A stretch of 61,792 bases of DNA, filler included, from Basidiobolus ranarum (lineage: Eukaryota): NCBI GenBank assembly GCA_040143965.1. It is 9 parts of 9 records of this genome, joined end to end, with 100 filler letters (N's around TTAATTAATTAA, not from the genome) between each part and the next. Parts side by side here need not be neighbours in the genome. Positions count along the whole stretch, not along the records: positions 41,299 to 48,067 come from JASJQH010001249.1; 8 more parts are not named here. The stretch is one strand, 5' to 3'. The notes beneath the pieces are model-generated. The model saw only the letters and a program-made list of their open reading frames with translations, searched no databases and was not told the origin of the DNA. Both the position numbers and the translations under genes were made by a program. This document shows, in pieces, positions 5,134 through 55,033 of the stretch (its first letter is position 1; each line of letters begins with the position of its first letter).

Positions 5134-6119
5134 GTCAGAATGAATATTCTAATGCAAGAAAACTATTTCCATATAACCTATGGATCCCAAACTATCTGAT
5201 AGCAGAATTTATTTCCCTGTACTTCAATCCATCTTCTTGGCTAACAATTTCAGAATAAGAACATGCATAAGAATAAAAATTACTACTCAAATATAGGCTT
5301 TCCCATAGAAGTTGACAGTGTGATGAAGTTACATTTATTGCACCTCTATTCATAATGTAAATAATGCCAAATCGATGCGTTTCCAGAAGGATTCAAGTTC
5401 TAAAAGCACAGAAGTGGAAACTAACTTACTATTGGCTTGATGGATACAATCACTCATTGCGATTCAAACAAATGTAAAGAGGATAAAATGCATCGGAATG
5501 GTAGGATTATGAGGATGAATGTCACCCAGTGAGTGGGTACTGTCTCCTTTAAAATACTAAATAAAAAAGCAAAATATAGTAGTATTACTCTTAAACATAG
5601 TGAAAAATATTGGATAAAGCATCGAATACTGTTATAGAGCAATATATAAAGTTACATAAGTTATGTATTCATAAGTAACTTATATGAGGGTTTTGATAGT
5701 GTGTTACTCATATATGTATAGTATTGGTAGAAAGTTGGTTAACTTATATAATTGTTACATGTAAATGAGGTGCAATGCGCCTACTTGATGAAGTCCCAGT
5801 AAGATCGTTACCAGGTGAACGCTATCTTATAATTAAAAATGATTAAAATATAAGAACATACTCCATTCCAACTATTCGGTGTTAATTTCCACTGACAGCA
5901 ACTATGAATCATTAGGTAGGCAGCTCCAGTGTTGACGAGTATTCTAATATTGGTGGCTTGATTTAGACTCTCGTTCTTGTATCAGTTTTGCAGTGCTCCA
6001 AGTTTGATACATGTAAACAGAGGTTTATTGAATCTCGAAAGCAACTCTATTATATCATACATTATAGGTATATATATATATATTTGAGTGTCATTGACAA
6101 GTCAAAATAGTACGTCGGT

Positions 6120-6795: not shown

Positions 6796-6895
6796 NNNNN
6801 NNNNNNNNNNNNNNNNNNNNNNNNNNNNNNNNNNNNNNNTTAATTAATTAANNNNNNNNNNNNNNNNNNNNNNNNNNNNNNNNNNNNNNNNNNNN
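6796..6895. other. Artificial contig linker
   Basis: N44-TTAATTAATTAA-N44, giving stops in all six frames. Confidence 0.98.
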
Positions 6896-11547: not shown

Positions 11548-12716
11548 ATGACAGCTGCCATTCCTGTTCTAGACCTATCGCTTTGGACATCTGAAGATCG
11601 AGTACACAAAGCCATGTTTTTGAAGGAGCTTCGCCATGCGCTTATTCATGTTGGCTTCTTCTATGTTCGCAATCATGCAGTATCTCCGGAACTAATTGAG
11701 GATATTCTTACGCAATCTAAACAATTTTTTCACTTGCCGTTGGAGGAAAAACGTTCTCTGGAAATAGAGAACAGTCCCCAATTCAGAGGATACACTGCCA
11801 TGAGTAAGTACTATAATTGTTTGGCCATTCAGACAAGGTTACTAAGCAAGAGTTTAATTTACCAGAGAATGAAGTGACCGATCACAAGCTTGACAACCGC
11901 GAGCAAATTGACTTTGGGTCCGAGTTACCAATTAAAACCGACCTTACCAGTGATTCACCCACTTTCTTGCGTCTCACAGGTCCAAACCAATGGCCTAATA
12001 AGGATTTACTCCCGAATTTCAAACCAACAGTACTTCAGTTTATGAAAGAAACCGAACGAATCTCTTTATCTCTAGTTCAAGCTATTGCAGAGACTCTAGG
12101 ATTACCAGGAAATTTCTTGGAATCCACCTTCAATACGGAGCCCTATTACCGTCTCAAAGTAGTACGCTATCCATCTATGGGTGACCCGGTGGATCAACCT
12201 GAGGAGCATGGATTAGGTGTTGGGCCACACAAGGTTAGTTTATCTATGATGTTTAGGGCTAGAGTTAGAGCACTAACGTAACCATTTGTCGTATAGGATT
12301 ATGGCTTTTTGACTATTTTACTACAAGATAACGTTGGAGGCTTACAAATTCAAACTCAACAAGGAGAATGGATTGATGCCCCATCTATTCCGGACACATT
12401 CGTAGTGAATATTGGAGAAGCCTTTGAACGATTAACTCAATGTTGCTTTGTAGCCACCACCCATCGAGTTCTTAATAATCGTTCTGGTAAAGATCGATTC
12501 TCAGTTCCATTCTTCTTCAACCCTTCTTTGGATGCCATTGTTCCCAATATTAATGTACCCGAGGATATCCTGGCCGAATGTAGTAAAGTATACATTTCTG
12601 ATGTCAAACAAGAGCAATTACTTCAAGATCCGGCTTATGGAGTGAATGCATTTGGTGGTCTTTGCCGATCACATCCAAGTGTTGTAGCAAGACATTATCC
12701 TGAACTTCGATCCTAA
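11548..12716 (+). CDS. 2-oxoglutarate/Fe(II) dioxygenase, isopenicillin N synthase-like (DIOX_N + 2OG-FeII_Oxy), 3 exons
   Basis: IPVLDLS and GFFYVRNH; H-K-D motif spans intron 12234-12296; distal His in THRV; RFS motif; first intron 11804-11865. Confidence 0.92.
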
Positions 12717-13689: not shown

Positions 13690-13789
13690 NNNNNNNNNNN
13701 NNNNNNNNNNNNNNNNNNNNNNNNNNNNNNNNNTTAATTAATTAANNNNNNNNNNNNNNNNNNNNNNNNNNNNNNNNNNNNNNNNNNNN
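13690..13789. other. Artificial contig linker
   Basis: N44-TTAATTAATTAA-N44. Confidence 0.98.
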
Positions 13790-34328: not shown

Positions 34329-34428
34329 NNNNNNNNNNNNNNNNNNNNNNNNNNNNNNNNNNNNNNNNNNNNTTAATTAATTAANNNNNNNNNNNNNNNN
34401 NNNNNNNNNNNNNNNNNNNNNNNNNNNN
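34329..34428. other. Artificial contig linker
   Basis: N44-TTAATTAATTAA-N44. Confidence 0.98.
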
Positions 34429-41198: not shown

Positions 41199-41298
41199 NN
41201 NNNNNNNNNNNNNNNNNNNNNNNNNNNNNNNNNNNNNNNNNNTTAATTAATTAANNNNNNNNNNNNNNNNNNNNNNNNNNNNNNNNNNNNNNNNNNNN
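41199..41298. other. Artificial contig linker
   Basis: N44-TTAATTAATTAA-N44. Confidence 0.98.
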
Positions 41299-41410
41299 AT
41301 TGGGCTCCTGATGTATATGATGGAGTACCAACATTAGTAACTTCATGGTTAGCAGTAATACCAAAGATATCACTTCTAGTATTTATGTTAGAATTATTTG
41401 CAGGAGTATA
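41299..41410 (+). pseudogene. nad2: Mitochondrial nad2 fragment (NUMT)
   Basis: Translates as [32 protein letters not shown] with mitochondrial-style A/T-ending codons; the similarity then ends. Confidence 0.8.
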
Positions 41411-42759
41411 TAGACCACAGCATACCTATTACATTCTTGTAAATTTCCAGTAGAACATGGATCCAAGTGGTTTATCTTACCCGGTTAATTTTACAATATA
41501 CGCATTGAGCCAGTGCAGCTCAGGTTCAAAATGAAATCATGTAATGATGCTAGTACGCAACCAATGAGCTACCTAATCAATATCATATTTCAATCAAGAA
41601 TTTTACCGCGCTTTATCTTACCGCGCTGTAGTGTATCCAAATCAGGTTCACTCAAACCACCTTCAGAAAACAATAATTCCTACCTCCCCTTACATTTGTG
41701 ACAAAAACTTGCGTGCAGATAATATCCAATACTGAAATATGGTAAATTGTGTGAATTAGGTGTTGGTGCGGATGTACAGAGACAAATGTAATCAGCCGGG
41801 ATACTAGTATGTGAAATTTGCATTTTATTGTTCATAAAGAAACTACCCATACATACGTATGCATGAAACCAGAAAAAACAAGGTCCTTTTTACAAGTTTC
41901 GGAACATCTCTCTCTAGATGAGGCAAGAGATCAGGAACAGATGGCCTAACACCTCCGTCATTGATGAAACGAGGGCTTATATAGTTACTAACAGTTATTC
42001 AAAAATTGATGCACGAGAATGGTTACACTCGAAACTCTATTACAAGATGATCTTCCCAAGTTGTCACATTGTATGCGATTACACGGATTTGTTTTACGAA
42101 TACGCCGAGACTCAACGGTCAAGTAAGATTTCAGTAGTCTAAGGGAATATAGAGATGTGGTCACAGGTGGCAGCGGTTGCAAAAGGAAGTGTGGTCCCAA
42201 TGTTTCAACATTTTTAAGAATCCCCTGCCTACAGCTAAATCTATTATACGCCAAGAGCAAAAATCGAAAGCTACAGAATAAATATATGCAAGCTTACACA
42301 TGTGGTAGTGTATATTGTTAAGCCACGAACGTCCGAGTTCACCTCCACCGAAATGGCAAGATACTGCCTGGGCAGGATACACGGTTAAAGCAAGTATCTG
42401 GCACAAATACAATGTGTACTCGAAATTATTCGGAGAATTAAAGCTTGAAAATGGATCAGAAATCAATGCAGATAGATGAAACAAGTAATTCACGGGTTGA
42501 ATCCATAATTACCGCTCAAAATCCATGACAAATGGATACATTGTTTCTCATTCCAACTAAGGCATTGTCACAATTGCGAGCAATGTATTGTACTAGAGAT
42601 GAAACCAATAACTCTGGATTCGGCTATCTCTCTTCAAATCCGATATAAACGGATCCCTTTCCCATGTAGAAAATCACCAAACGTCACCTCATTGGACTTC
42701 CGGCCTGGTCCAACTTTCCTTAGTTGCTTTGCTTAGTTTTCCGCTATCCTTCCTTTCCA

Positions 42760-43197
42760 ATGCGTTTTTATGAGGTCCTATTTCCATTGCTGGTAATTTG
42801 CATTTCTCTTGCTTATGCGGCGATCCCAGATCTTTCGAATTTCAAGGATAATGAGCCAGATGTAGTCCAGGAATTAAGAAGACTTCACAACGAAAAGGTC
42901 CTCCCAGTGATCAAGGAAGTAACCAAGCAAATCCTTCGACCTGAGTTTGACGCTATGGAGGCATTGAAGAAATTAAAACGTATGAAAGATGAGTATCAAA
43001 ATGAAGGAGAGTCGCTAATGCAAAAATACTCAACCCAAGCACAGTATAAGAAGGCTCAGTTACATAAAGTCAACAAGATTGTCACTTCCGAGATACAAGT
43101 AGTCACAAACCTCCTAAAAAAGGCTGCTGTGCCGAAGGCTGAGGAACCCTATTTCACGTTGGTGAGGAGAAAAAATGAAACTTTACATGAACTTTAA
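42760..43197 (+). CDS. Secreted alpha-helical protein A (145 aa), unknown function
   Basis: Signal peptide MRFYEVLFPLLVICISLAYA; charged amphipathic mature region without Cys; TATA at ~42644. Confidence 0.72.
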   Translation: MRFYEVLFPLLVICISLAYAAIPDLSNFKDNEPDVVQELRRLHNEKVLPVIKEVTKQILRPEFDAMEALKKLKRMKDEYQNEGESLMQKYSTQAQYKKAQLHKVNKIVTSEIQVVTNLLKKAAVPKAEEPYFTLVRRKNETLHEL

Positions 43198-45124
43198 CGG
43201 AGTATCAATATATTCGTATTCGATAGAAATTTATCCTTTGGTGATTGTCTAGCTTCACTTGATTGCAGTTATTCTTTTCCGCCCACACCAAAATTTCGTG
43301 TATTTCGATTTCCTATGGTAATCTAATGTCTCTTGTACTATATGCTCAATAAACCTCCAATTTTGAAACCTACATTACCCTTTTCTCTTAAAATAAGTAC
43401 TCTGTATGTACCATCCGCCTTAAACAAACTCAGCACATACAAAGTTTGGCCTACTACACTTACTGAATAACCAGTTTGCAATATCTGCCGCGCACTCTAG
43501 TGTTAGACAACAAGAAATAGTCATGTATGTGTTCTTTTGAAATTCACCAAGCCACTATATATTGCTGTAAGGTGGTGGCTCGCCGTTCAACGAATTTAAT
43601 TGTAGTGAGCGAAGTATGTTTAAGATAATGTCTAGACTGCTACAGAGAAGTTACTATAAGACTTGTAAGAAAGTATTCTTGGAGTTGAGGTCGGTTGAAT
43701 TCTGTTATTTTGATCTTCCGAAAAACATGGGGAATGTCATTATACTGGTACTACCAAGGCTTCGATGGTGCTGGTAAAATTAAATGATAGCTCCGGGGAT
43801 CCTAACTGTATGCTAATGAACCAGGTCTAAAGGATGGTATGTCAGATTTATTTCACTGCTTTTGAGAAGCCAATCCAGTTCAGTAACGTGGACACGGATC
43901 ATCTACATGAGGCCGTATATCTTCCTTTATTCATCTGGCAGCTCCACTTGATGTGAGCGTGGATACCACGGATGCGGATACTTGTTTTCGCCAGTTTTTT
44001 TTGAAACTCACATTTATGCAAAATAGTTCATTTCAAGATAATAATATTTCCCTAAGCCTGAGATTCAATATAGTAGCATTAATGTGAACTGTAATCAACA
44101 CTGAGGTAAATCATGGTTGGGACCATACGTCGGTCAGATTTGCCTAGTCTGAAGAACTGTCGATCACGGTAAGTATAATGAGCATTATGCACAATGATTA
44201 AATGTTATGCGCTTCATGGATATTGATAGTCCCTTGAACTTGCAACAGACACGTTACTATTACCTGAACAAGGATCGACGTACAGGGGTGCCGCAAGTAA
44301 TATAGAGTGTTCTCATATTGAAATTATCAGTAGTTGATCACATACGCACCCTGTCATTCAAAATAGTTTCTAAGCTCCGATTTATTGTTCTGAATCGTTT
44401 CATAAAGATCAACGCTCATTATCTGGTCGTTACAGAGTTTCACCATGTGAGGGTTGAAGAAAGACAGGTCATAACATATGAAAAGGTATGATGTATCTCG
44501 GTTGAACCTGGAGGTCAAGTGCTCTATGTCCTGTTCTTTGTGAAGAGCACCTTCGAACAATTTCAACTTCGTCATTAGATAGGAATGACAACAGGACTTA
44601 CTTCATCTATTGCTTCAATAAATGAGCTTCGTATCATTCTGGTCTATTTAGGTCTATTTGGTTTCGTATTAAATCTACGGGTGCAATCCGAGTATTCAAG
44701 TCCATAATTTCCTCTGTCAGAAAAACGATGTTTTACCCGAGCAGTTGGAAATGTTCAGCCCTTGATAGTGCCACATGCACCTAAACACCTTCCAGATTTC
44801 CACAGGTAGTGGGGGGTAGTAGTAGTACTTCTTTGTATAGTTTTATAGCGTCATAAAACACCCATGAGCTAGTCATTCGTTTCTATCTCTATCAGCGTAT
44901 CCTACTGCATAGATCAGTTCGTTTGTACTGTCCCATGCAAGTAGCTGAGGTGTGCGATTCATGTGTTGTGGCAATCATACTATATCTAGACCTTCAAAAT
45001 AAAGTTATAAAATCGAGCAGTGATCGGCTCCCATTAATTTTCTTTCAAGGTTTAACGTCTTACCCTTCACCTTCCTTAACAACTCTTTAACTAAACCGAA
45101 CAGTACATTCGAATCTTCAGCAAG

Positions 45125-45469
45125 ATGCAAGTCAAACTCATACTGACCTTGTCAATATTTTTGCCAGGGATTTTCGGGCTTCCTGGAATCGTCGAGGAGC
45201 TCTTGCGCCTTCGCTCTCAGCTTTTTGACCCGTTCAATGAGTTTCTTCAACAAAGAGAACTCTTAAGCGCTTATACAAACCCACATATTCGCCAACGTTT
45301 CAACCGCCTGTTGGGTAATTACATCCAAGCTGAGAAAATGCTCCTGATGCGTCACAGAATCGAAGCATACAAACATCGGGGACAAATTGATATTGAAAGA
45401 AAAATTACTAGAGAAGCTATTGATCAATTCAGAAGCTTCTTGAGAAATGACCGATTCATTGTTCAATGA
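45125..45469 (+). CDS. Secreted alpha-helical protein B (114 aa), distant paralog of A
   Basis: Signal peptide MQVKLILTLSIFLPGIFG; TATAAAA at ~45006; AATAAA downstream; aligns without gaps to A. Confidence 0.72.
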   Translation: MQVKLILTLSIFLPGIFGLPGIVEELLRLRSQLFDPFNEFLQQRELLSAYTNPHIRQRFNRLLGNYIQAEKMLLMRHRIEAYKHRGQIDIERKITREAIDQFRSFLRNDRFIVQ

Positions 45470-45799
45470 CCAAGCGTGTACTGTTCAGATCAATCATTTG
45501 AAGTTACTATTTAATAAATTTATGCAGTCTACTGGACCTGTGTTCTTTTCTGAATGATTCAGTGACTTAGTTACGTTCTACAGGGTAGTGCCTGGTCTGA
45601 AGCACAAATCTTTAGCGGAAATTGACTTCACATAAGCGATTAACATACATTTTGTGCACCCTTTAATAATTTCAAACTTCAGGTTTATTTATTTTTGATC
45701 TGAGGGTTTCTCTCATCTCATAAAGAGAACGAGCACTAAATACTAAGCAAAGATAGAAGAGAATATAAAGAGAATTTCCAGTCTAGCTGGAATGATCTT

Positions 45800-46580
45800 C
45801 TATTTACCATACCAGATGAAACTGACTCCTTTTCCAGTTTCAAAATCGCCGTACGATTTCACGCCAACTCCACCTTTGCCACCAAAGCGGAAATTGTAAT
45901 TGCTGGTATACACACTGCCATCAGTATTGATCCTTTCAACCACAGCAACGTGGCCTGGCCCACCAGCTCCTTGAGATCCTGGTTGAAGTACGATGATCGA
46001 CGGAACCTTAGGCTTGTCTGCTTCAGTCCACTTACTGTCAGCTTTGGCACGTGAGCTCCATAATCTTGCATCTCCCGACCATGATATATGATGTCCAGTG
46101 ATTTGGGCGTATCGAGCATCCGCCCAGTCAGTACATTGTCCATTACGAAATTCAAATACTAATGGATAGTTCTCCACACCCAAAGTTGAAGTGTAACTGT
46201 CAGTAGAGTTATTTGAGTTGTCAGGATTAGTACCATTCGAACATTTGGGATTATTTTGACTATCCCCAGAGACTGCTTGATCACCAGAAGGCTTACAATA
46301 GTCAGGGGAGCCGGGCTTATCTTGATAACAGCCATATTGACACTTTTCAATGAGTTTGAATGAACTTTTCCCGGAACATCTATAGAGTACGTCTTTCTCT
46401 CGACCTAATTTGAAAAGCGGTTGATTCAACGGCTACACTTAAGAATCAATGGATTACAAACTCATAGTTACCTAATACATCTCCACAGTATAGTCCATTT
46501 CCATATGGGCAATGCTTACGAGCATTAACACTCAAAAAAATGGTTGTAAGTGCGGAAACAAAAGTCAAGAATTTAAGCAT
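45800..46580 (-). CDS. Secreted CHAP-domain amidase/peptidase with N-terminal Cys-rich domain, 2 exons
   Basis: Start MLKFLTFVSALTTIFLSVNA at 46580; intron 46405-46471; catalytic Cys in GQCTDWA and His in GHVAVVE. Confidence 0.9.
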
Positions 46581-47851
46581 CTCGGATGTAGGTGAATAAG
46601 TGTTTGTTGAAGTTCACGATGGAAATGGCCTCTTTTATATTGAATGTATCTTGGCTCACTACCTAGTACATTCAACATTCTTATTGATGGACCCAATCGC
46701 TTTAGACTGCGCTCAAACTGAGCCTTTGGTACATGGTAGCTTAAACACGTTTGCCAGTACTTGTGAGAGCTACCAGCCCCGGTTCACTTCTGAGAGTGTA
46801 TCTCACTTTCGCATATGAAGAAAGTGATATTCATTATTGCATACTACACTTGGATGCCTCATTTGAGATAGCATAGGTGTAGATAACAAATGGAATGGAA
46901 AGAATAGCATAGAGGTAATATTGCATTCAATTGTATCCAATCCCAACGACATCCCTAAATATTCCAATATATTTTCCGAGTCTCTTCAGTGTGTCCACTT
47001 CCTCTGATCCAGCTCATAGATTATTTGCTCCACTGATTGATCAACCATTGCTTGCCTTTCATTAATCTCGATCAGGAAATCAGATGAAACGGGCCAACGA
47101 TCAGGTCACGGTAATCTCAGAAGTCGTTCTGGAAGATTTGACCCGCTCAATCATTTGAGAATGCAATTCGGAAAAACTCTGGCTTGAAGCGGCTGCTCCA
47201 ATACCGAAGAGGGTTGATTTGCACTCATTTTAGAAAGCCAATAAGCTCCTACCAATAAAATGATAATATTTAAGTTCACTTCTGATTGCACAGAAATGAT
47301 TCAACTAATCGACTAAAGTACACAAAATTTACTTTATACAAATATTAGGCAGTCAAGACCTGTACTATGTTGTTTGTTTGGTGTACATAACATCTCGAGT
47401 GAAACAAGCATCGTGATGATTATATGAGAGACTGACTCGGTGATTTGAATCTCTTAGCTGCTAGATTAAAATTAATATGTTCACATCTTAGGCGACAATT
47501 CAGTTTCCTAGTCCGACTGTGAAGTAGTACCTACAAAGACACCAGAATCATAGCACAAAACATCCTACATATTACAGTGAAAGATAGGGAGAGCAGATAA
47601 TATCTTATCAGTCTCAGTACATGAGCCACCCAAAGTGTACTTCTACCGGATGTATGAAAGTCAAGTGAAGATTAATACTCGTACCATATTGTGCAGAGTG
47701 ATTTTTACAATAATGATAAACAATACGGCCAGGATTTGACTTGTCAAAAGTGTCTAATTTTATTGGGTAAATCTTATGATACGAAGATATTTAAATAACC
47801 GAGAGATAAGAGCCTACTTGAGGCTCACCAGTCGATAAAAACGCTTCATCC

Positions 47852-48067
47852 TTATTTCCAGATGAAGTCGACTCCGTTACCAGTACGGAAATTACCATAT
47901 GCCTTGATATAAGGTCCACCATTGCCATTGAAGCGATAATTGTAATTGCTAGTATAGACACTTCCATCTTTGTTAATTTTCTCAACTACAGCGACGTGTC
48001 CGGGCCCACCCGGTCCGTGAGCACCAGGGTGAATAAAAAAGATGGTGGGAACCGTGGGACTCTTGGA
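47852..48067 (-). CDS. Second CHAP-domain protein, 3' end only
   Basis: PTVPTIFFIHPGAHGPGGPGHVAVVEKINKDGSVYTSNYNYRFNGNGGPYIKAYGNFRTGNGVDFIWK*, a clear paralog of 45800-46580. Confidence 0.88.
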   Translation of the reverse strand, partial: SKSPTVPTIFFIHPGAHGPGGPGHVAVVEKINKDGSVYTSNYNYRFNGNGGPYIKAYGNFRTGNGVDFIWK

Positions 48068-48167
48068 NNNNNNNNNNNNNNNNNNNNNNNNNNNNNNNNN
48101 NNNNNNNNNNNTTAATTAATTAANNNNNNNNNNNNNNNNNNNNNNNNNNNNNNNNNNNNNNNNNNNN
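48068..48167. other. Artificial contig linker
   Basis: N44-TTAATTAATTAA-N44. Confidence 0.98.
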
Positions 48168-54933: not shown

Positions 54934-55033
54934 NNNNNNNNNNNNNNNNNNNNNNNNNNNNNNNNNNNNNNNNNNNNTTAATTAATTAANNNNNNNNNNN
55001 NNNNNNNNNNNNNNNNNNNNNNNNNNNNNNNNN
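54934..55033. other. Artificial contig linker
   Basis: N44-TTAATTAATTAA-N44. Confidence 0.98.

What the first reader, a model, noticed from the sequence alone, without database searches (positions are those of the whole stretch)
45800..48067. Tandem fungal CHAP peptidoglycan-hydrolase genes: probable domesticated bacterial HGT
Seen: two same-strand CHAP genes. The complete one has a signal peptide, a spliceosomal intron (46405-46471) and intact catalytic Cys and His. Established: CHAP domains are mostly bacterial and phage peptidoglycan amidases/endopeptidases, and fungi have no peptidoglycan. Inference: a horizontally acquired antibacterial enzyme that gained an intron and duplicated. The intron argues against contamination.
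Basis: partly seen in the sequence, partly recalled or inferred. Interest (0 to 1): 0.76.

Follow-up and report, generated by a model that had tools for sequence, protein, structure and literature searches.

The report
Bacterial-origin cell-wall-cutting genes in Basidiobolus
Two neighbouring genes of the fungus Basidiobolus ranarum encode secreted enzymes of a bacterial type that cuts bacterial cell walls, part of a large gene family that fungi of this group took over from bacteria long ago.

Summary
On the minus strand lie one complete CHAP gene (exon 46580-46472, 67-nt GT..AG intron 46471-46405, exon 46404-45803) and the 3' end of a second (48067-47855), which is cut by a contig end and not broken. 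The spliced product equals the annotated 237-aa Basidiobolus ranarum protein K7432_013160.

Pfam CHAP scores E 3e-15. Cys127, His188 and Asn205 are conserved, and the model matches staphylococcal and phage CHAP lysins.

The nearest non-fungal relatives are all Ktedonobacteria-type Chloroflexota (44-61% identity). In a careful tree all 26 fungal rows form one clade (99/99): Basidiobolus, Conidiobolus, Entomophthora and Massospora. That points to one old transfer, followed by expansion to at least 33 Basidiobolus copies. An AU test (p 0.52) leaves open whether the fungal clade is nested in Ktedonobacteria or sister to them.

New here: gene 1 also carries a six-cysteine module with no Pfam, NCBIfam or PDB match. 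In bacteria this module sits on M23, CHAP, amidase and GH25 wall hydrolases. It was added secondarily within Basidiobolus, and the intron lies inside it.

Lytic activity and splicing are inferred, since no RNA data could be reached. This is a new member of a known kind (domesticated bacterial lysins).

The parts
41299..48067 (.). The 6,769-base contig that holds the finding. The window is nine contigs joined by artificial linkers.
   Evidence: N-run and linker map. The length equals the contig length given for K7432_013160. GC is 39.3% against 38.5% for the window.
46472..46580 (-). Gene 1 exon 1: start codon, signal-peptide-like leader (residues 1-20, 46580-46521) and the first third of the six-Cys module (Cys24, Cys32).
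   Evidence: spliced product = P0003. Hydropathy scan.
46405..46471 (-). Spliceosomal-type intron: 67 nt, GT..AG, phase 1, 34% GC, lying inside the module-coding part.
   Evidence: The joined product runs without a break through alignments with paralogues and with intron-less bacterial modules. Not tested on RNA.
45800..46404 (-). Gene 1 exon 2 with stop codon (45802-45800): rest of the module, a disordered Asn/Ser-rich linker (46288-46169) and the CHAP domain.
   Evidence: The model has pLDDT below 50 for residues 77-109.
46295..46511 (-). Six-cysteine module (residues 24-73: Cys24, 32, 46, 58, 62, 73), interrupted by the intron.
   Evidence: Alignment A2 shows all six Cys invariant. The profile search found 50 proteins, mostly bacterial wall hydrolases. 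There is no Pfam, NCBIfam or PDB sequence match.
45803..46168 (-). CHAP catalytic domain (residues 116-237): Cys127 (46135-46133), His188 (45952-45950), Asn205 (45901-45899), Asn207 (45895-45893).
   Evidence: Pfam. PDB sequence hits 5t1q, 2k3a, 2lrj. Model pLDDT above 90 and Foldseek matches to CHAP structures. Conserved columns.
47852..48067 (-). Gene 2: last 71 codons plus stop of a second CHAP gene, cut by the contig end. Catalytic His codon at 47998-47996. It sits 1,271 nt upstream of gene 1's ATG, head to tail.
   Evidence: Best match is B. meristosporus P0005 at 80% identity over 70 aa.

Best explanation
The locus holds two head-to-tail members of a family of secreted CHAP cysteine amidases/peptidases of Basidiobolus ranarum.

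Origin. The CHAP domain descends from the membrane-anchored CHAP proteins typical of Ktedonobacteria (Chloroflexota). It entered fungi once. The resulting clade is shared by Basidiobolus and the Entomophthorales (Conidiobolus, Entomophthora, Massospora). In fungi the bacterial cytoplasmic tail and membrane anchor were replaced by a eukaryotic signal peptide. In Basidiobolus the family grew, largely by tandem duplication, to at least 33 distinct copies in two species.

The added module. In one Basidiobolus sub-clade, which includes both genes here, a six-cysteine module was added in front of the CHAP domain. This module is otherwise found on bacterial peptidoglycan hydrolases. An intron arose later inside it.

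Likely mechanism (inferred). The protein is secreted. The disulfide-rich module holds it to a glycan wall polymer. The flexible Asn/Ser linker gives reach. The Cys127-His188-Asn205 triad cuts an amide or peptide bond of peptidoglycan, killing or digesting bacteria that share the fungus's gut, dung and cadaver habitats.

Shown here: gene structure, family membership, conserved catalytic residues, fold, bacterial affinity, fungal monophyly and host-like composition. Inferred: secretion, splicing, substrate, and the binding role of the module.
For: Gene model and identity to K7432_013160.

CHAP membership:
- Pfam E 3.4e-15.
- PDB sequence hits to staphylococcal CHAP proteins, E 1.6e-7 to 1.6e-4.
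- AlphaFold model with pLDDT above 90 over the domain.
- Foldseek hits 5t1q (E 5e-6), phage phi812 CHAP, 2k3a, LysK CHAPK and PlyC-type lysins.

Catalytic residues in 40 fungal proteins plus the gene-2 fragment:
- Cys in 38 of the 39 rows that cover the site.
- His in 40 of 41.
- Asn or Asp at the third position in 41 of 41.

Bacterial affinity:
- After 29 Basidiobolus rows, the remaining 91 of the 120 listed hits are unnamed metagenome proteins or are named Thermogemmatispora, Ktedonobacteraceae or Chloroflexota, at about 54-60% identity over the domain.
- All 77 best loci among 185,579 prokaryote species genomes carry Chloroflexota/Ktedonobacteria titles.
- The best Atlas structural cluster is Chloroflexota, TM 0.88.

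One fungal clade:
- FastTree of 369 rows: Basidiobolus 33 rows at 97, with a sister group of six Entomophthorales-type rows at 85.
- IQ-TREE LG+C20 on 111 rows: all 26 fungal rows at 99/99, Basidiobolus 99/92, Entomophthorales 97/95.

Not contamination:
- The intron.
- CDS GC 43.1% and GC3 34.2%, against a median of 54% and 52% in 111 bacterial ORFs.
- Homologues sit on fungal contigs of 96-316 kb.

Loss of the anchor and gain of a leader: hydropathy scan.

Module:
- A 578-aa M23 protein carries six copies and was hit at E 2.6e-16.
- The profile search gave 50 proteins. Of the 27 with a Pfam domain, 22 carry M23 (13), CHAP (7), Amidase_2+SLT (1) or GH25 (1).
- The module-bearing rows P0003-P0006 form a clade at 95/96, nested inside Basidiobolus.

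Precedent for the function: Aspergillus fumigatus CwhA (signal peptide + bacterial SH3 + NlpC/P60) is described as a secreted fungal endopeptidase that cleaves peptidoglycan (PMC12332128, abstract start and passages).
Against:
- The AU test does not reject a tree in which the 76 bacterial ingroup rows form their own clade with the fungi outside (p-AU 0.523, and that tree is 1.12 log-likelihood units better). The fungi may therefore be sister to the sampled Ktedonobacteria-type proteins instead of nested among them, and the exact donor is open.
- The DNA patterns used in the genome scan were taken from this subfamily and favour it.
- Only the 150 best of 663 representatives were visible, and the Entomophthorales rows lie near the bottom of that list. 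More divergent fungal members may therefore have been missed.
- CHAP domains also act on non-wall substrates such as glutathionylspermidine. Those structures appear as weak hits.
- The third triad residue is Asn or Asp. By my own recalled numbering, LysK has Glu there.
- The module's fold matches are weak, with best Z 4.3.
Confidence: 0.7

Rival explanations
1. The genes are real and of bacterial origin, but the enzymes are not bacteriolytic weapons. They might trim or scavenge peptidoglycan fragments for nutrition, or to blunt host immune sensing of bacteria in insects and amphibians. They might instead act on a non-peptidoglycan amide substrate of the fungus or its host.
For: CHAP is a broad amidase fold. 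Glutathionylspermidine and trypanothione amidases appear as weak structural matches. The family is kept in insect pathogens (Entomophthora, Massospora, Conidiobolus), where interaction with the host is as plausible as competition with bacteria. No activity data exist.
Against: The best sequence and structural matches are wall hydrolases and phage lysins. The added module occurs in bacteria on four different classes of wall hydrolase. A secretion leader is present in most family members.
Confidence: 0.2
2. Basidiobolus and the Entomophthorales acquired the gene separately, from closely related unsampled bacteria or by fungus-to-fungus transfer. There was no single acquisition followed by descent.
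For: The placement of Basidiobolus is contested. A 2023 review says it does not belong to Entomophthorales and was inferred either as sister to Mucoromycota or as the earliest branch of Zoopagomycota (PMC10386755, passage read). NCBI now lists the two groups in two phyla. No homologues from the lineages in between were seen.
Against: All 26 fungal rows form one clade at 99/99 with no bacterial row inside. The two fungal groups are each other's sisters within it. That pattern fits one bacterial-to-fungal entry. Fungus-to-fungus spread after that entry cannot be excluded.
Confidence: 0.12
3. Bacterial contamination or a chimeric assembly: the CHAP genes are not part of the fungal genome.
For: The contig is short (6,769 b). 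The neighbouring ORFs have no recognisable family, so the flanks do not themselves prove a fungal origin.
Against: The GT..AG intron is required for the reading frame. GC3 is 34%, against a bacterial median of 52%. Contig GC equals that of the other eight contigs. There are 33 paralogues in two Basidiobolus assemblies, on contigs up to 204 kb. The protein is only 44-61% identical to any bacterial relative found.
Confidence: 0.02
4. An old eukaryotic gene inherited vertically and lost almost everywhere, with no transfer from bacteria.
For: None specific. In principle the sister position allowed by the AU test does not give a direction.
Against: Named eukaryotic members in the clade come only from Basidiobolus and Entomophthorales. 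Identity to Ktedonobacteria-type proteins reaches 61%. More distant Chloroflexota CHAP proteins root outside both groups at 100/98. CHAP is overwhelmingly bacterial and phage-borne (Atlas clusters).
Confidence: 0.03

Closest known systems
Ktedonobacteria (Chloroflexota) membrane-anchored CHAP proteins, annotated 'surface antigen' or 'CHAP domain-containing' (Thermogemmatispora, Ktedonobacter, Dictyobacter and others)
   Same: Same CHAP subfamily, at 44-61% identity over about 115 residues. Shared runs include VPSIIVLQPG..QGAG..GHVAVVERIN.DGSVYTSNYN. The family is also multi-copy and arranged in tandem in these bacteria: 3-10 matches per genome, and six in a row in strain brp13.
   Different: The bacterial proteins are about 310-350 aa, with a long N-terminal tail and an internal hydrophobic anchor at residues 110-145. 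They lack both the six-Cys module and any intron, and their GC is 47-63%. The fungal proteins have an N-terminal leader, low-complexity linkers, and in this sub-clade the extra module.
Staphylococcal CHAP wall hydrolases and phage endolysin CHAP domains (PDB 5t1q, 2k3a, 2lrj, phi812 hub CHAP, LysK CHAPK 4csh, LysGH15 4olk)
   Same: Same fold and same Cys/His catalytic pair. Foldseek probability is 1.0 at 21-30% identity.
   Different: They are distant in sequence. They use other targeting domains (SH3b, LysM, amidase partners). By my recalled LysK numbering, their third residue is Glu where this family has Asn or Asp.
Aspergillus fumigatus CwhA (PMC12332128)
   Same: A secreted fungal enzyme built as signal peptide + bacterial-type wall-binding domain + papain-like Cys/His wall hydrolase. 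The paper describes it as an antibacterial endopeptidase that cleaves peptidoglycan (abstract start and passages).
   Different: CwhA has an NlpC/P60 domain (PF00877) and an SH3b domain. The Basidiobolus protein has CHAP and the six-Cys module. It comes from a different fungal phylum, and the term 'horizontal' does not occur in the paper's main text.
Saprolegnia parasitica secreted CHAP family (PMC3681718)
   Same: A eukaryote associated with aquatic animals has seven secreted CHAP genes. The authors regard them as probably acquired from bacteria and expanded by duplication (passages read).
   Different: Saprolegnia is an oomycete and not a fungus. No donor is named, and I could not compare the sequences. 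No oomycete-named row appeared among the proteins I looked up.
Other domesticated bacterial wall hydrolases in eukaryotes: Trichomonas vaginalis NlpC/P60, GH25 lysozymes spread across domains, tick Dae amidases
   Same: The same evolutionary pattern: a bacterial lysin gene taken over by a eukaryote and used outside the cell. Trichomonas (bioRxiv 10.1101/320382, PMC10461829) and GH25 (PMC4241558) were seen only as search listings with abstract starts. The tick case is recalled and comes from no call.
   Different: Different catalytic families, recipients and donors. None carries the six-Cys module, as far as these listings show.

Membership tests
CHAP domain (Pfam PF05257; MEROPS C51 in UniRef naming) | Profile match above the curated gathering score | tested here: met
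   56.7 bits against a cut-off of 26 (E 3.4e-15) for gene 1. 28.2 bits against 26 for the 71-aa gene-2 fragment.
CHAP domain (Pfam PF05257; MEROPS C51 in UniRef naming) | Catalytic Cys near the start of the first helix, and His in a beta-strand, both conserved | tested here: met
   Cys127 and His188 are invariant in the 120-row alignment and align with the GQCT and GHVA motifs of 5t1q, 2k3a and 2lrj. Fungal rows: Cys in 38 of 39, His in 40 of 41. Gene 2 shows only the His, because its Cys region lies beyond the contig end.
CHAP domain (Pfam PF05257; MEROPS C51 in UniRef naming) | Papain-like alpha+beta CHAP fold | tested here: met
   The model has pLDDT above 90 over residues 130-237. There are nine PDB chains at E <= 0.001, all CHAP proteins.
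CHAP domain (Pfam PF05257; MEROPS C51 in UniRef naming) | Amidase or endopeptidase activity on peptidoglycan | not testable with these tools
   This needs purified protein, zymography or muropeptide analysis, and a Cys127Ala control.
Gene acquired by a eukaryote from bacteria (HGT) | The closest relatives outside the recipient lineage are bacterial | tested here: met
   All 77 best genome loci are Chloroflexota/Ktedonobacteria.
Gene acquired by a eukaryote from bacteria (HGT) | The eukaryotic sequences form one clade placed inside a bacterial radiation | tested here: inconclusive
   One fungal clade at 99/99, and rooted outside by distant Chloroflexota CHAPs at 100/98. Nesting within the Ktedonobacteria type rests on nodes of 80/75, 92/88 and 83/82, and the AU test does not reject the sister arrangement (p 0.523).
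Gene acquired by a eukaryote from bacteria (HGT) | Narrow distribution among eukaryotes | tested here: inconclusive
   Every named eukaryotic row is Basidiobolus, Conidiobolus, Entomophthora or Massospora. However, only 150 of 663 representatives were visible, and only 20 were looked up by name.
Gene acquired by a eukaryote from bacteria (HGT) | Physically part of the recipient genome, not a contaminant | tested here: met
   The intron is required for the frame. GC and GC3 are host-like. Paralogues lie on fungal contigs up to 204 kb, and up to 316 kb in Conidiobolus.
Six-cysteine module of bacterial wall hydrolases (no library family found) | About 50 residues with six conserved Cys and the motifs C-P-x-G-N-G-x-Y-C-G, L-Y-x-C, x-G-C and P-D-x-C | tested here: met
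   Alignment A2 shows 15 invariant columns, including all six Cys. BLASTP of P0003 against the metagenome protein P0309 gives 44% identity over 52 aa, E 9e-13. A six-repeat M23 protein was hit at E 2.6e-16 in 1.84 billion representatives.
Six-cysteine module of bacterial wall hydrolases (no library family found) | Binds a wall glycan (peptidoglycan or chitin) | not testable with these tools
   Only an association is available: 22 of the 27 partner proteins with a Pfam domain are wall hydrolases.
CBM14 / tachycitin-type chitin-binding domain (considered for the module) | Shared small disulfide-rich beta fold | tested here: inconclusive
   VIA-align scores: Der p 23 Z 4.3, Blo t 12 3.0, Avr4 2.8 and 2.7, tachycitin 2.6, CHIT1 CBM14 2.4. 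All are far below the Z of 8 that the tool treats as meaningful. Foldseek found nothing at E <= 0.001.
Class IIa bacteriocin (Pfam PF01721; considered because of the YGNG motif in exon 1) | Profile match above the gathering score | tested here: not met
   E 0.4, 11.2 bits against a cut-off of 24.5, over 9 residues. The YGNG belongs to the six-Cys module motif.

The most novel reading that the evidence does not exclude
The CHAP clade is a single bacterial gene capture found only in Basidiobolus and the Entomophthorales. That makes it a rare genomic change bearing on the contested placement of Basidiobolus. In the gut-dwelling Basidiobolus the family then radiated into an arsenal of more than 30 secreted lysins. 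Within that radiation a mosaic gene was assembled inside a fungus from two bacterial parts of separate origin: a Ktedonobacteria-type CHAP domain, and a six-cysteine wall-targeting module otherwise found in myxobacteria, cable bacteria and their like. This mosaic later acquired an intron inside the bacterial module. The module itself would be an undescribed domain family of bacterial wall hydrolases.
Probability: 0.35. Interest if true: 0.65.

Novelty: new member of a known kind. Interest (0 to 1): 0.5.

Why it matters
Eukaryotes that take over bacterial wall-cutting enzymes are a known theme, but one with few examples. This case adds four things.

1. A named donor lineage. Ktedonobacteria are soil, mycelium-forming Chloroflexota.
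2. An old transfer shared by two fungal groups whose relationship is disputed.
3. One of the largest expansions seen for such a gene, with at least 33 distinct copies in two Basidiobolus species.
4. A mosaic with a second bacterial module that has no entry in Pfam, NCBIfam or the PDB.

If the enzymes are active, they are candidates for how a gut fungus of amphibians and reptiles, and insect-killing relatives, control the surrounding bacteria. They would also be a pool of natural lysins with varied front ends.

The gene itself is already in public databases as a hypothetical 'Peptidase C51 domain-containing' protein. Heavy bacterial gene transfer into Basidiobolus has been published. This is therefore an extension of known biology and not a surprise of kind.

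Tried and rejected
- The window's own genome is not held, so copy number in this assembly rests on the protein databases.
- Word-based search with the module region alone found only the query. The profile search over longer proteins then worked.
- Pfam and NCBIfam give no family for the module. A PDB sequence search with the module profile gave one chance hit at E 0.91.
- The Foldseek search of the two-module model gave nothing at E <= 0.001. The VIA-align search gave only weak rows.
- The class IIa bacteriocin reading of the YGNG motif was rejected.
- The neighbouring ORFs 42760-43194 and 45125-45466 have no Pfam family and are not alike.
- Earlier findings of this scan: three look-ups, nothing held.
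- Literature, full-text searches:
  - The listing (20 of 168 papers shown) has no paper holding 'CHAP domain' together with Conidiobolus or Entomophthora.
  - In the three papers of the listing that I read, 'chap' was 'chaperone' or similar, or was absent.
  - Tabima et al. 2020 (PMC7466969) reports 806 transfer candidates in B. meristosporus. 'Peptidoglycan', 'amidase', 'Chloroflexi' and 'Ktedonobacter' do not occur in its main text.
- I did not use complex prediction, because no binding claim is made.
Full report
WHAT IS THERE

The window is not one stretch of chromosome. It is nine contigs of about 6.8 kb joined by N44-TTAATTAATTAA-N44 linkers. The finding lies on contig 41299-48067.

Both genes are on the minus strand. 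Gene 1 is laid out as follows:
- Exon 1 runs from the ATG at 46580 to 46472.
- A 67-nt intron follows (46471-46405, GTAACT...TTAG, phase 1, 34% GC).
- Exon 2 runs from 46404 to 45803, with the stop codon at 45802-45800.

The long exon-2 frame contains no methionine, and reading through the intron meets stop codons. A start codon and leader are therefore reached only by splicing. A script that joined the exons gave a 714-nt CDS whose product is letter for letter the public 237-aa protein K7432_013160 of Basidiobolus ranarum.

Gene 2 (48067-47855, stop 47854-47852) is the last 71 codons of a second gene, 1,271 nt upstream of gene 1 and head to tail with it. It is cut by the end of the contig and is not broken. 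A tblastn of the whole window found only these two copies.

FAMILY

Exon 2 matches Pfam CHAP (PF05257) at E 3.4e-15, and the gene-2 fragment at E 2.7e-6. Both are above the curated cut-off.

Sequence search of the PDB finds three staphylococcal CHAP proteins (5t1q, 2k3a, 2lrj), with the GQCT and GHVA motifs aligned.

An AlphaFold model built on 120 sequences has mean pLDDT 78.6. It is above 90 over the CHAP domain, 75-89 over residues 25-75, and below 50 over the Asn/Ser-rich linker 77-109.

Foldseek against the PDB gives nine chains at E <= 0.001, all CHAP wall hydrolases or phage lysin parts. LysK, LysGH15, PlyC-type lysins and PcsB follow just below.

Cys127, His188 and Asn207 are invariant in the 120-row alignment, and Asn205 is nearly so. 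In 40 fungal proteins plus the gene-2 fragment:
- Cys is kept in 38 of the 39 rows that cover it. The exception is P0189, which has Phe.
- His is kept in 40 of 41. The exception is P0124, which has Tyr.
- The third position is Asn or Asp in 41 of 41.

That Asn205 sits where LysK has Glu is my own recalled numbering and comes from no call.

RELATIVES AND ORIGIN

The word-indexed search of 5.8 billion proteins gave 219 hits at E <= 0.001, of which 120 were listed.
- The first 29 are all Basidiobolus: 15 from B. meristosporus and 14 from B. ranarum.
- The other 91 are unnamed metagenome proteins, or are named Thermogemmatispora, Ktedonobacteraceae or Chloroflexota. They show about 54-60% identity over the CHAP domain.

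A scan of one genome for each of 185,579 prokaryote species kept 77 loci. Every one is titled Ktedonobacter, Ktedonospora, Dictyobacter, Thermogemmatispora, Tengunoibacter, Thermosporothrix, Ktedonobacteraceae/-ales, or 'Chloroflexota'/'uncultured Chloroflexia' MAG, at 38-61% identity. The two DNA patterns used came from this subfamily and favour it.

These bacteria hold several copies. Three genomes gave 10, 3 and 9 matches, including six in a row in strain brp13.

In a sample of 301 Chloroflexota genomes, 55 had a match at E <= 1e-5, and about 23 of these were at E < 1e-19. This tally includes two genomes marked unpublished, G041 and G274, each with a weak match. No other claim rests on them.

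The exhaustive search of 1.84 billion representatives gave 663 hits at E <= 0.001, 237 at <= 1e-10 and 12 at <= 1e-30.

I looked up 20 of the listed proteins by name.
- Nine are fungal. Four are further Basidiobolus proteins. The others are Conidiobolus coronatus (P0226), Entomophthora muscae (P0204, P0259, P0261) and Massospora cicadina (P0220).
- Two are Ktedonobacter or Ktedonobacteraceae clusters.
One of these, P0232, is 87% identical to the Conidiobolus domain.

TREES

I cut the CHAP domain out of all stored proteins and out of the ORFs of the 77 loci. This gave 369 rows. P0189 was dropped as too short.

FastTree puts the 33 Basidiobolus rows in one clade (97). Its sister group (85) holds exactly the six Entomophthorales-type rows. 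The other 330 rows fall on the other side.

For a careful tree (IQ-TREE, LG+C20 PMSF, 118 columns) I used 111 of 381 rows:
- 73 of the 330 bacterial rows, after thinning to below 63% identity.
- 3 further ingroup rows.
- 26 of the 39 fungal rows, after thinning to below 85% identity.
- 9 distant Chloroflexota CHAP rows as outgroup.

Results of the careful tree:
- All 26 fungal rows form one clade at 99/99.
- Within it, Basidiobolus (99/92) and the Entomophthorales (97/95) are each other's sisters.
- Ingroup against outgroup is 100/98.
- The fungal clade sits among Dictyobacter, Thermogemmatispora, Tengunoibacter and brp13 rows, behind nodes of 80/75, 92/88 and 83/82.

That nesting is not secure. 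The AU test does not reject a tree with the 76 bacterial ingroup rows held as one clade. That tree is even 1.12 log-likelihood units better, with p-AU 0.523.

The safe statement is therefore as follows. There was one entry into fungi, from a bacterium carrying the CHAP type now known only from Ktedonobacteria-like Chloroflexota. Whether the donor was inside or beside the sampled radiation is open.

The direction bacteria to fungi rests on three points: the outgroup rooting, the bacterial breadth of CHAP, and the narrow fungal range.

HOW OLD, AND WHAT IT SAYS ABOUT THE FUNGI

NCBI now places Basidiobolus and the Entomophthorales in different phyla. A 2023 review states that Basidiobolus does not belong to the Entomophthorales. 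It says the genus was inferred either as sister to Mucoromycota or as the earliest branch of Zoopagomycota (PMC10386755, passage read).

A single captured gene shared by just these two groups therefore allows three readings:
- The capture dates to a deep common ancestor, with losses elsewhere.
- The gene moved between the fungi after capture.
- The shared gene is a rare character in favour of the traditional grouping.

I cannot decide between these. Only the best 150 representatives were visible, and the Entomophthorales rows lie near the end of that list (E 3e-18 to 7e-15). More divergent fungal members may exist below it.

DOMESTICATION

The bacterial proteins are about 310-350 aa, with a long N-terminal tail and a hydrophobic anchor at residues 110-145. 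Most fungal proteins instead start with a hydrophobic leader. The exceptions look like truncated gene models.

The composition figures are:

| Sequence | GC | GC3 |
|---|---|---|
| Gene 1 CDS | 43.1% | 34.2% |
| Contig 41299-48067 | 39.3% | not computed |
| 111 bacterial ORFs | median 54% (46.9-63.1%) | median 52% |

Consecutive locus tags on single B. ranarum contigs show that tandem arrays are the usual way the family grew. Examples are 005993-005995, 012408-012409 and 005503-005504.

Gene 1 groups with B. meristosporus P0004 (100/99). Gene 2 is closest to P0005, at 80% identity. P0004 and P0005 are both reported from a contig of 96,038 bases. The pair is therefore probably older than the split of the two species. 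Adjacency in B. meristosporus itself was not checked.

THE SECOND BACTERIAL PART

Residues 24-73 of gene 1 form a six-cysteine module (Cys24, 32, 46, 58, 62, 73).

The exhaustive search hit a 578-aa metagenome protein with six tandem copies of the module in front of an M23 peptidase, at E 2.6e-16.

A profile of five modules found 50 proteins at E <= 0.001 among 772 longer candidates. Their Pfam content is:
- 13 carry M23.
- 7 carry CHAP: four Basidiobolus proteins, plus P0299, a Candidatus Electrothrix protein (P0308), and P0322.
- 1 carries Amidase_2 + SLT.
- 1 carries GH25.
- 5 carry other domains.
- 23 carry no Pfam domain.

Several of the proteins with no Pfam domain end in a Cys/His region that looks like another papain-type hydrolase. 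Named sources are Myxococcales, Electrothrix and Doudnabacteria. The Atlas structure search pointed independently to Myxococcota M23 and Amidase_2 proteins.

The Electrothrix CHAP domain is of a different, more distant type. The module has no match in Pfam, NCBIfam or PDB sequences.

A model of a two-module protein has pLDDT 79.9. It gives only weak fold matches. The best are Der p 23 (Z 4.3) and PAFC (Z 4.1), followed by several CBM14-type chitin-binding domains at Z 2.4-3.0. This is a lead towards glycan binding and nothing more.

The module-bearing rows form a clade (95/96) nested within Basidiobolus behind nodes of 96/72, 97/83 and 98/85. Neither the Entomophthorales nor the Ktedonobacteria proteins show the module. 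The module was therefore most simply added later, inside Basidiobolus.

The intron lies between Cys32 and Cys46 of the module. The spliced sequence aligns without a break to intron-less bacterial modules, at 44% identity and E 9e-13. This is the best available support for splicing, and it shows that the intron arose after the module arrived.

FUNCTION

The most likely function is a secreted peptidoglycan hydrolase. The module would serve as a wall-targeting part and the linker as a tether. The enzyme would be used against bacteria in gut, dung, soil and cadavers.

This rests on family, fold, conserved catalytic residues, the company the module keeps in bacteria, and the precedent of A. fumigatus CwhA (PMC12332128). 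No activity or expression data could be obtained.

A non-lytic role is the main rival. This could be fragment scavenging, interference with the host's immune sensing of bacteria, or action on another amide substrate.

WHAT IS KNOWN

Heavy bacterial gene transfer into Basidiobolus is published: 806 candidates, about 5% of the genes in B. meristosporus (PMC7466969, passages read).

A secreted CHAP family of presumed bacterial origin is described in the oomycete Saprolegnia parasitica (PMC3681718).

My four full-text searches listed no paper that discusses CHAP genes in Basidiobolus or the Entomophthorales.

VERDICT

This is a new member of a known kind, with a moderately interesting evolutionary history and an undescribed accessory module.

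Noticed in passing
window 6796-6895, 13690-13789, 20578-20677, 27454-27553, 34329-34428, 41199-41298, 48068-48167, 54934-55033: The window is an artificial chain of nine contigs of about 6.8 kb joined by N44-TTAATTAATTAA-N44 linkers. Neighbourhood across a linker means nothing.
   Followed up: yes
proteins P0231, P0278-P0322; window 46295-46511 for the fungal copy: A six-cysteine module of about 50 residues, often in 2-20 tandem copies. It sits on bacterial M23, CHAP, Amidase_2/SLT and GH25 wall hydrolases (Myxococcales, Ca. Electrothrix, Doudnabacteria). It has no Pfam, NCBIfam or PDB sequence match and looks like an undescribed domain family.
   Followed up: partly
protein P0303 (B. ranarum K7432_016563, 124 aa, on a 2,978-b contig): Leader plus one six-Cys module, 63% identical over 100 aa to the front of B. 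meristosporus P0005, which is the closest relative of gene 2. It may be the missing 5' part of gene 2, sitting on another small contig. It could also be a separate paralogue.
   Followed up: partly
protein P0321 (353 aa, unnamed source): A GH25 muramidase with a eukaryote-looking leader and two six-Cys modules at its C-terminal end. This may be another eukaryotic wall hydrolase that uses the same module. Its organism is unknown.
   Followed up: no
proteins P0288, P0291, P0297, P0300, P0301: Bacterial module-bearing proteins without any Pfam hit. They share a C-terminal region with conserved Cys and His (WSD.CL.FV ... GHVVI.NGDGTVSTS) that looks like an unrecognised papain-type hydrolase.
   Followed up: no
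genome handle G003, contig 1, 6649322-6656443 (Ktedonobacteria bacterium brp13, locus L019): Six CHAP genes of the same subfamily in a row on one strand, one of them with an internal TAA. The family is therefore expanded in tandem in the bacterial relatives as well.
   Followed up: partly
proteins P0124 (B. ranarum) and P0189 (unnamed source): Family members with the catalytic His replaced by Tyr (P0124) or the catalytic Cys replaced by Phe (P0189). They may be decaying copies or non-catalytic binders.
   Followed up: no
window 42760-43194 (+) and 45125-45466 (+): Two small ORFs on the same contig with hydrophobic leaders and helical, charged bodies. They have no Pfam family and no likeness to each other. 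They may be small secreted proteins or nothing.
   Followed up: partly
window 46505-46485 (-), residues 26-32 of gene 1: YGNGLYC resembles the YGNGV-x-C box of class IIa bacteriocins. Pfam gives only E 0.4. The motif is part of the six-Cys module consensus C-P-x-G-N-G-L-Y-C-G.
   Followed up: yes
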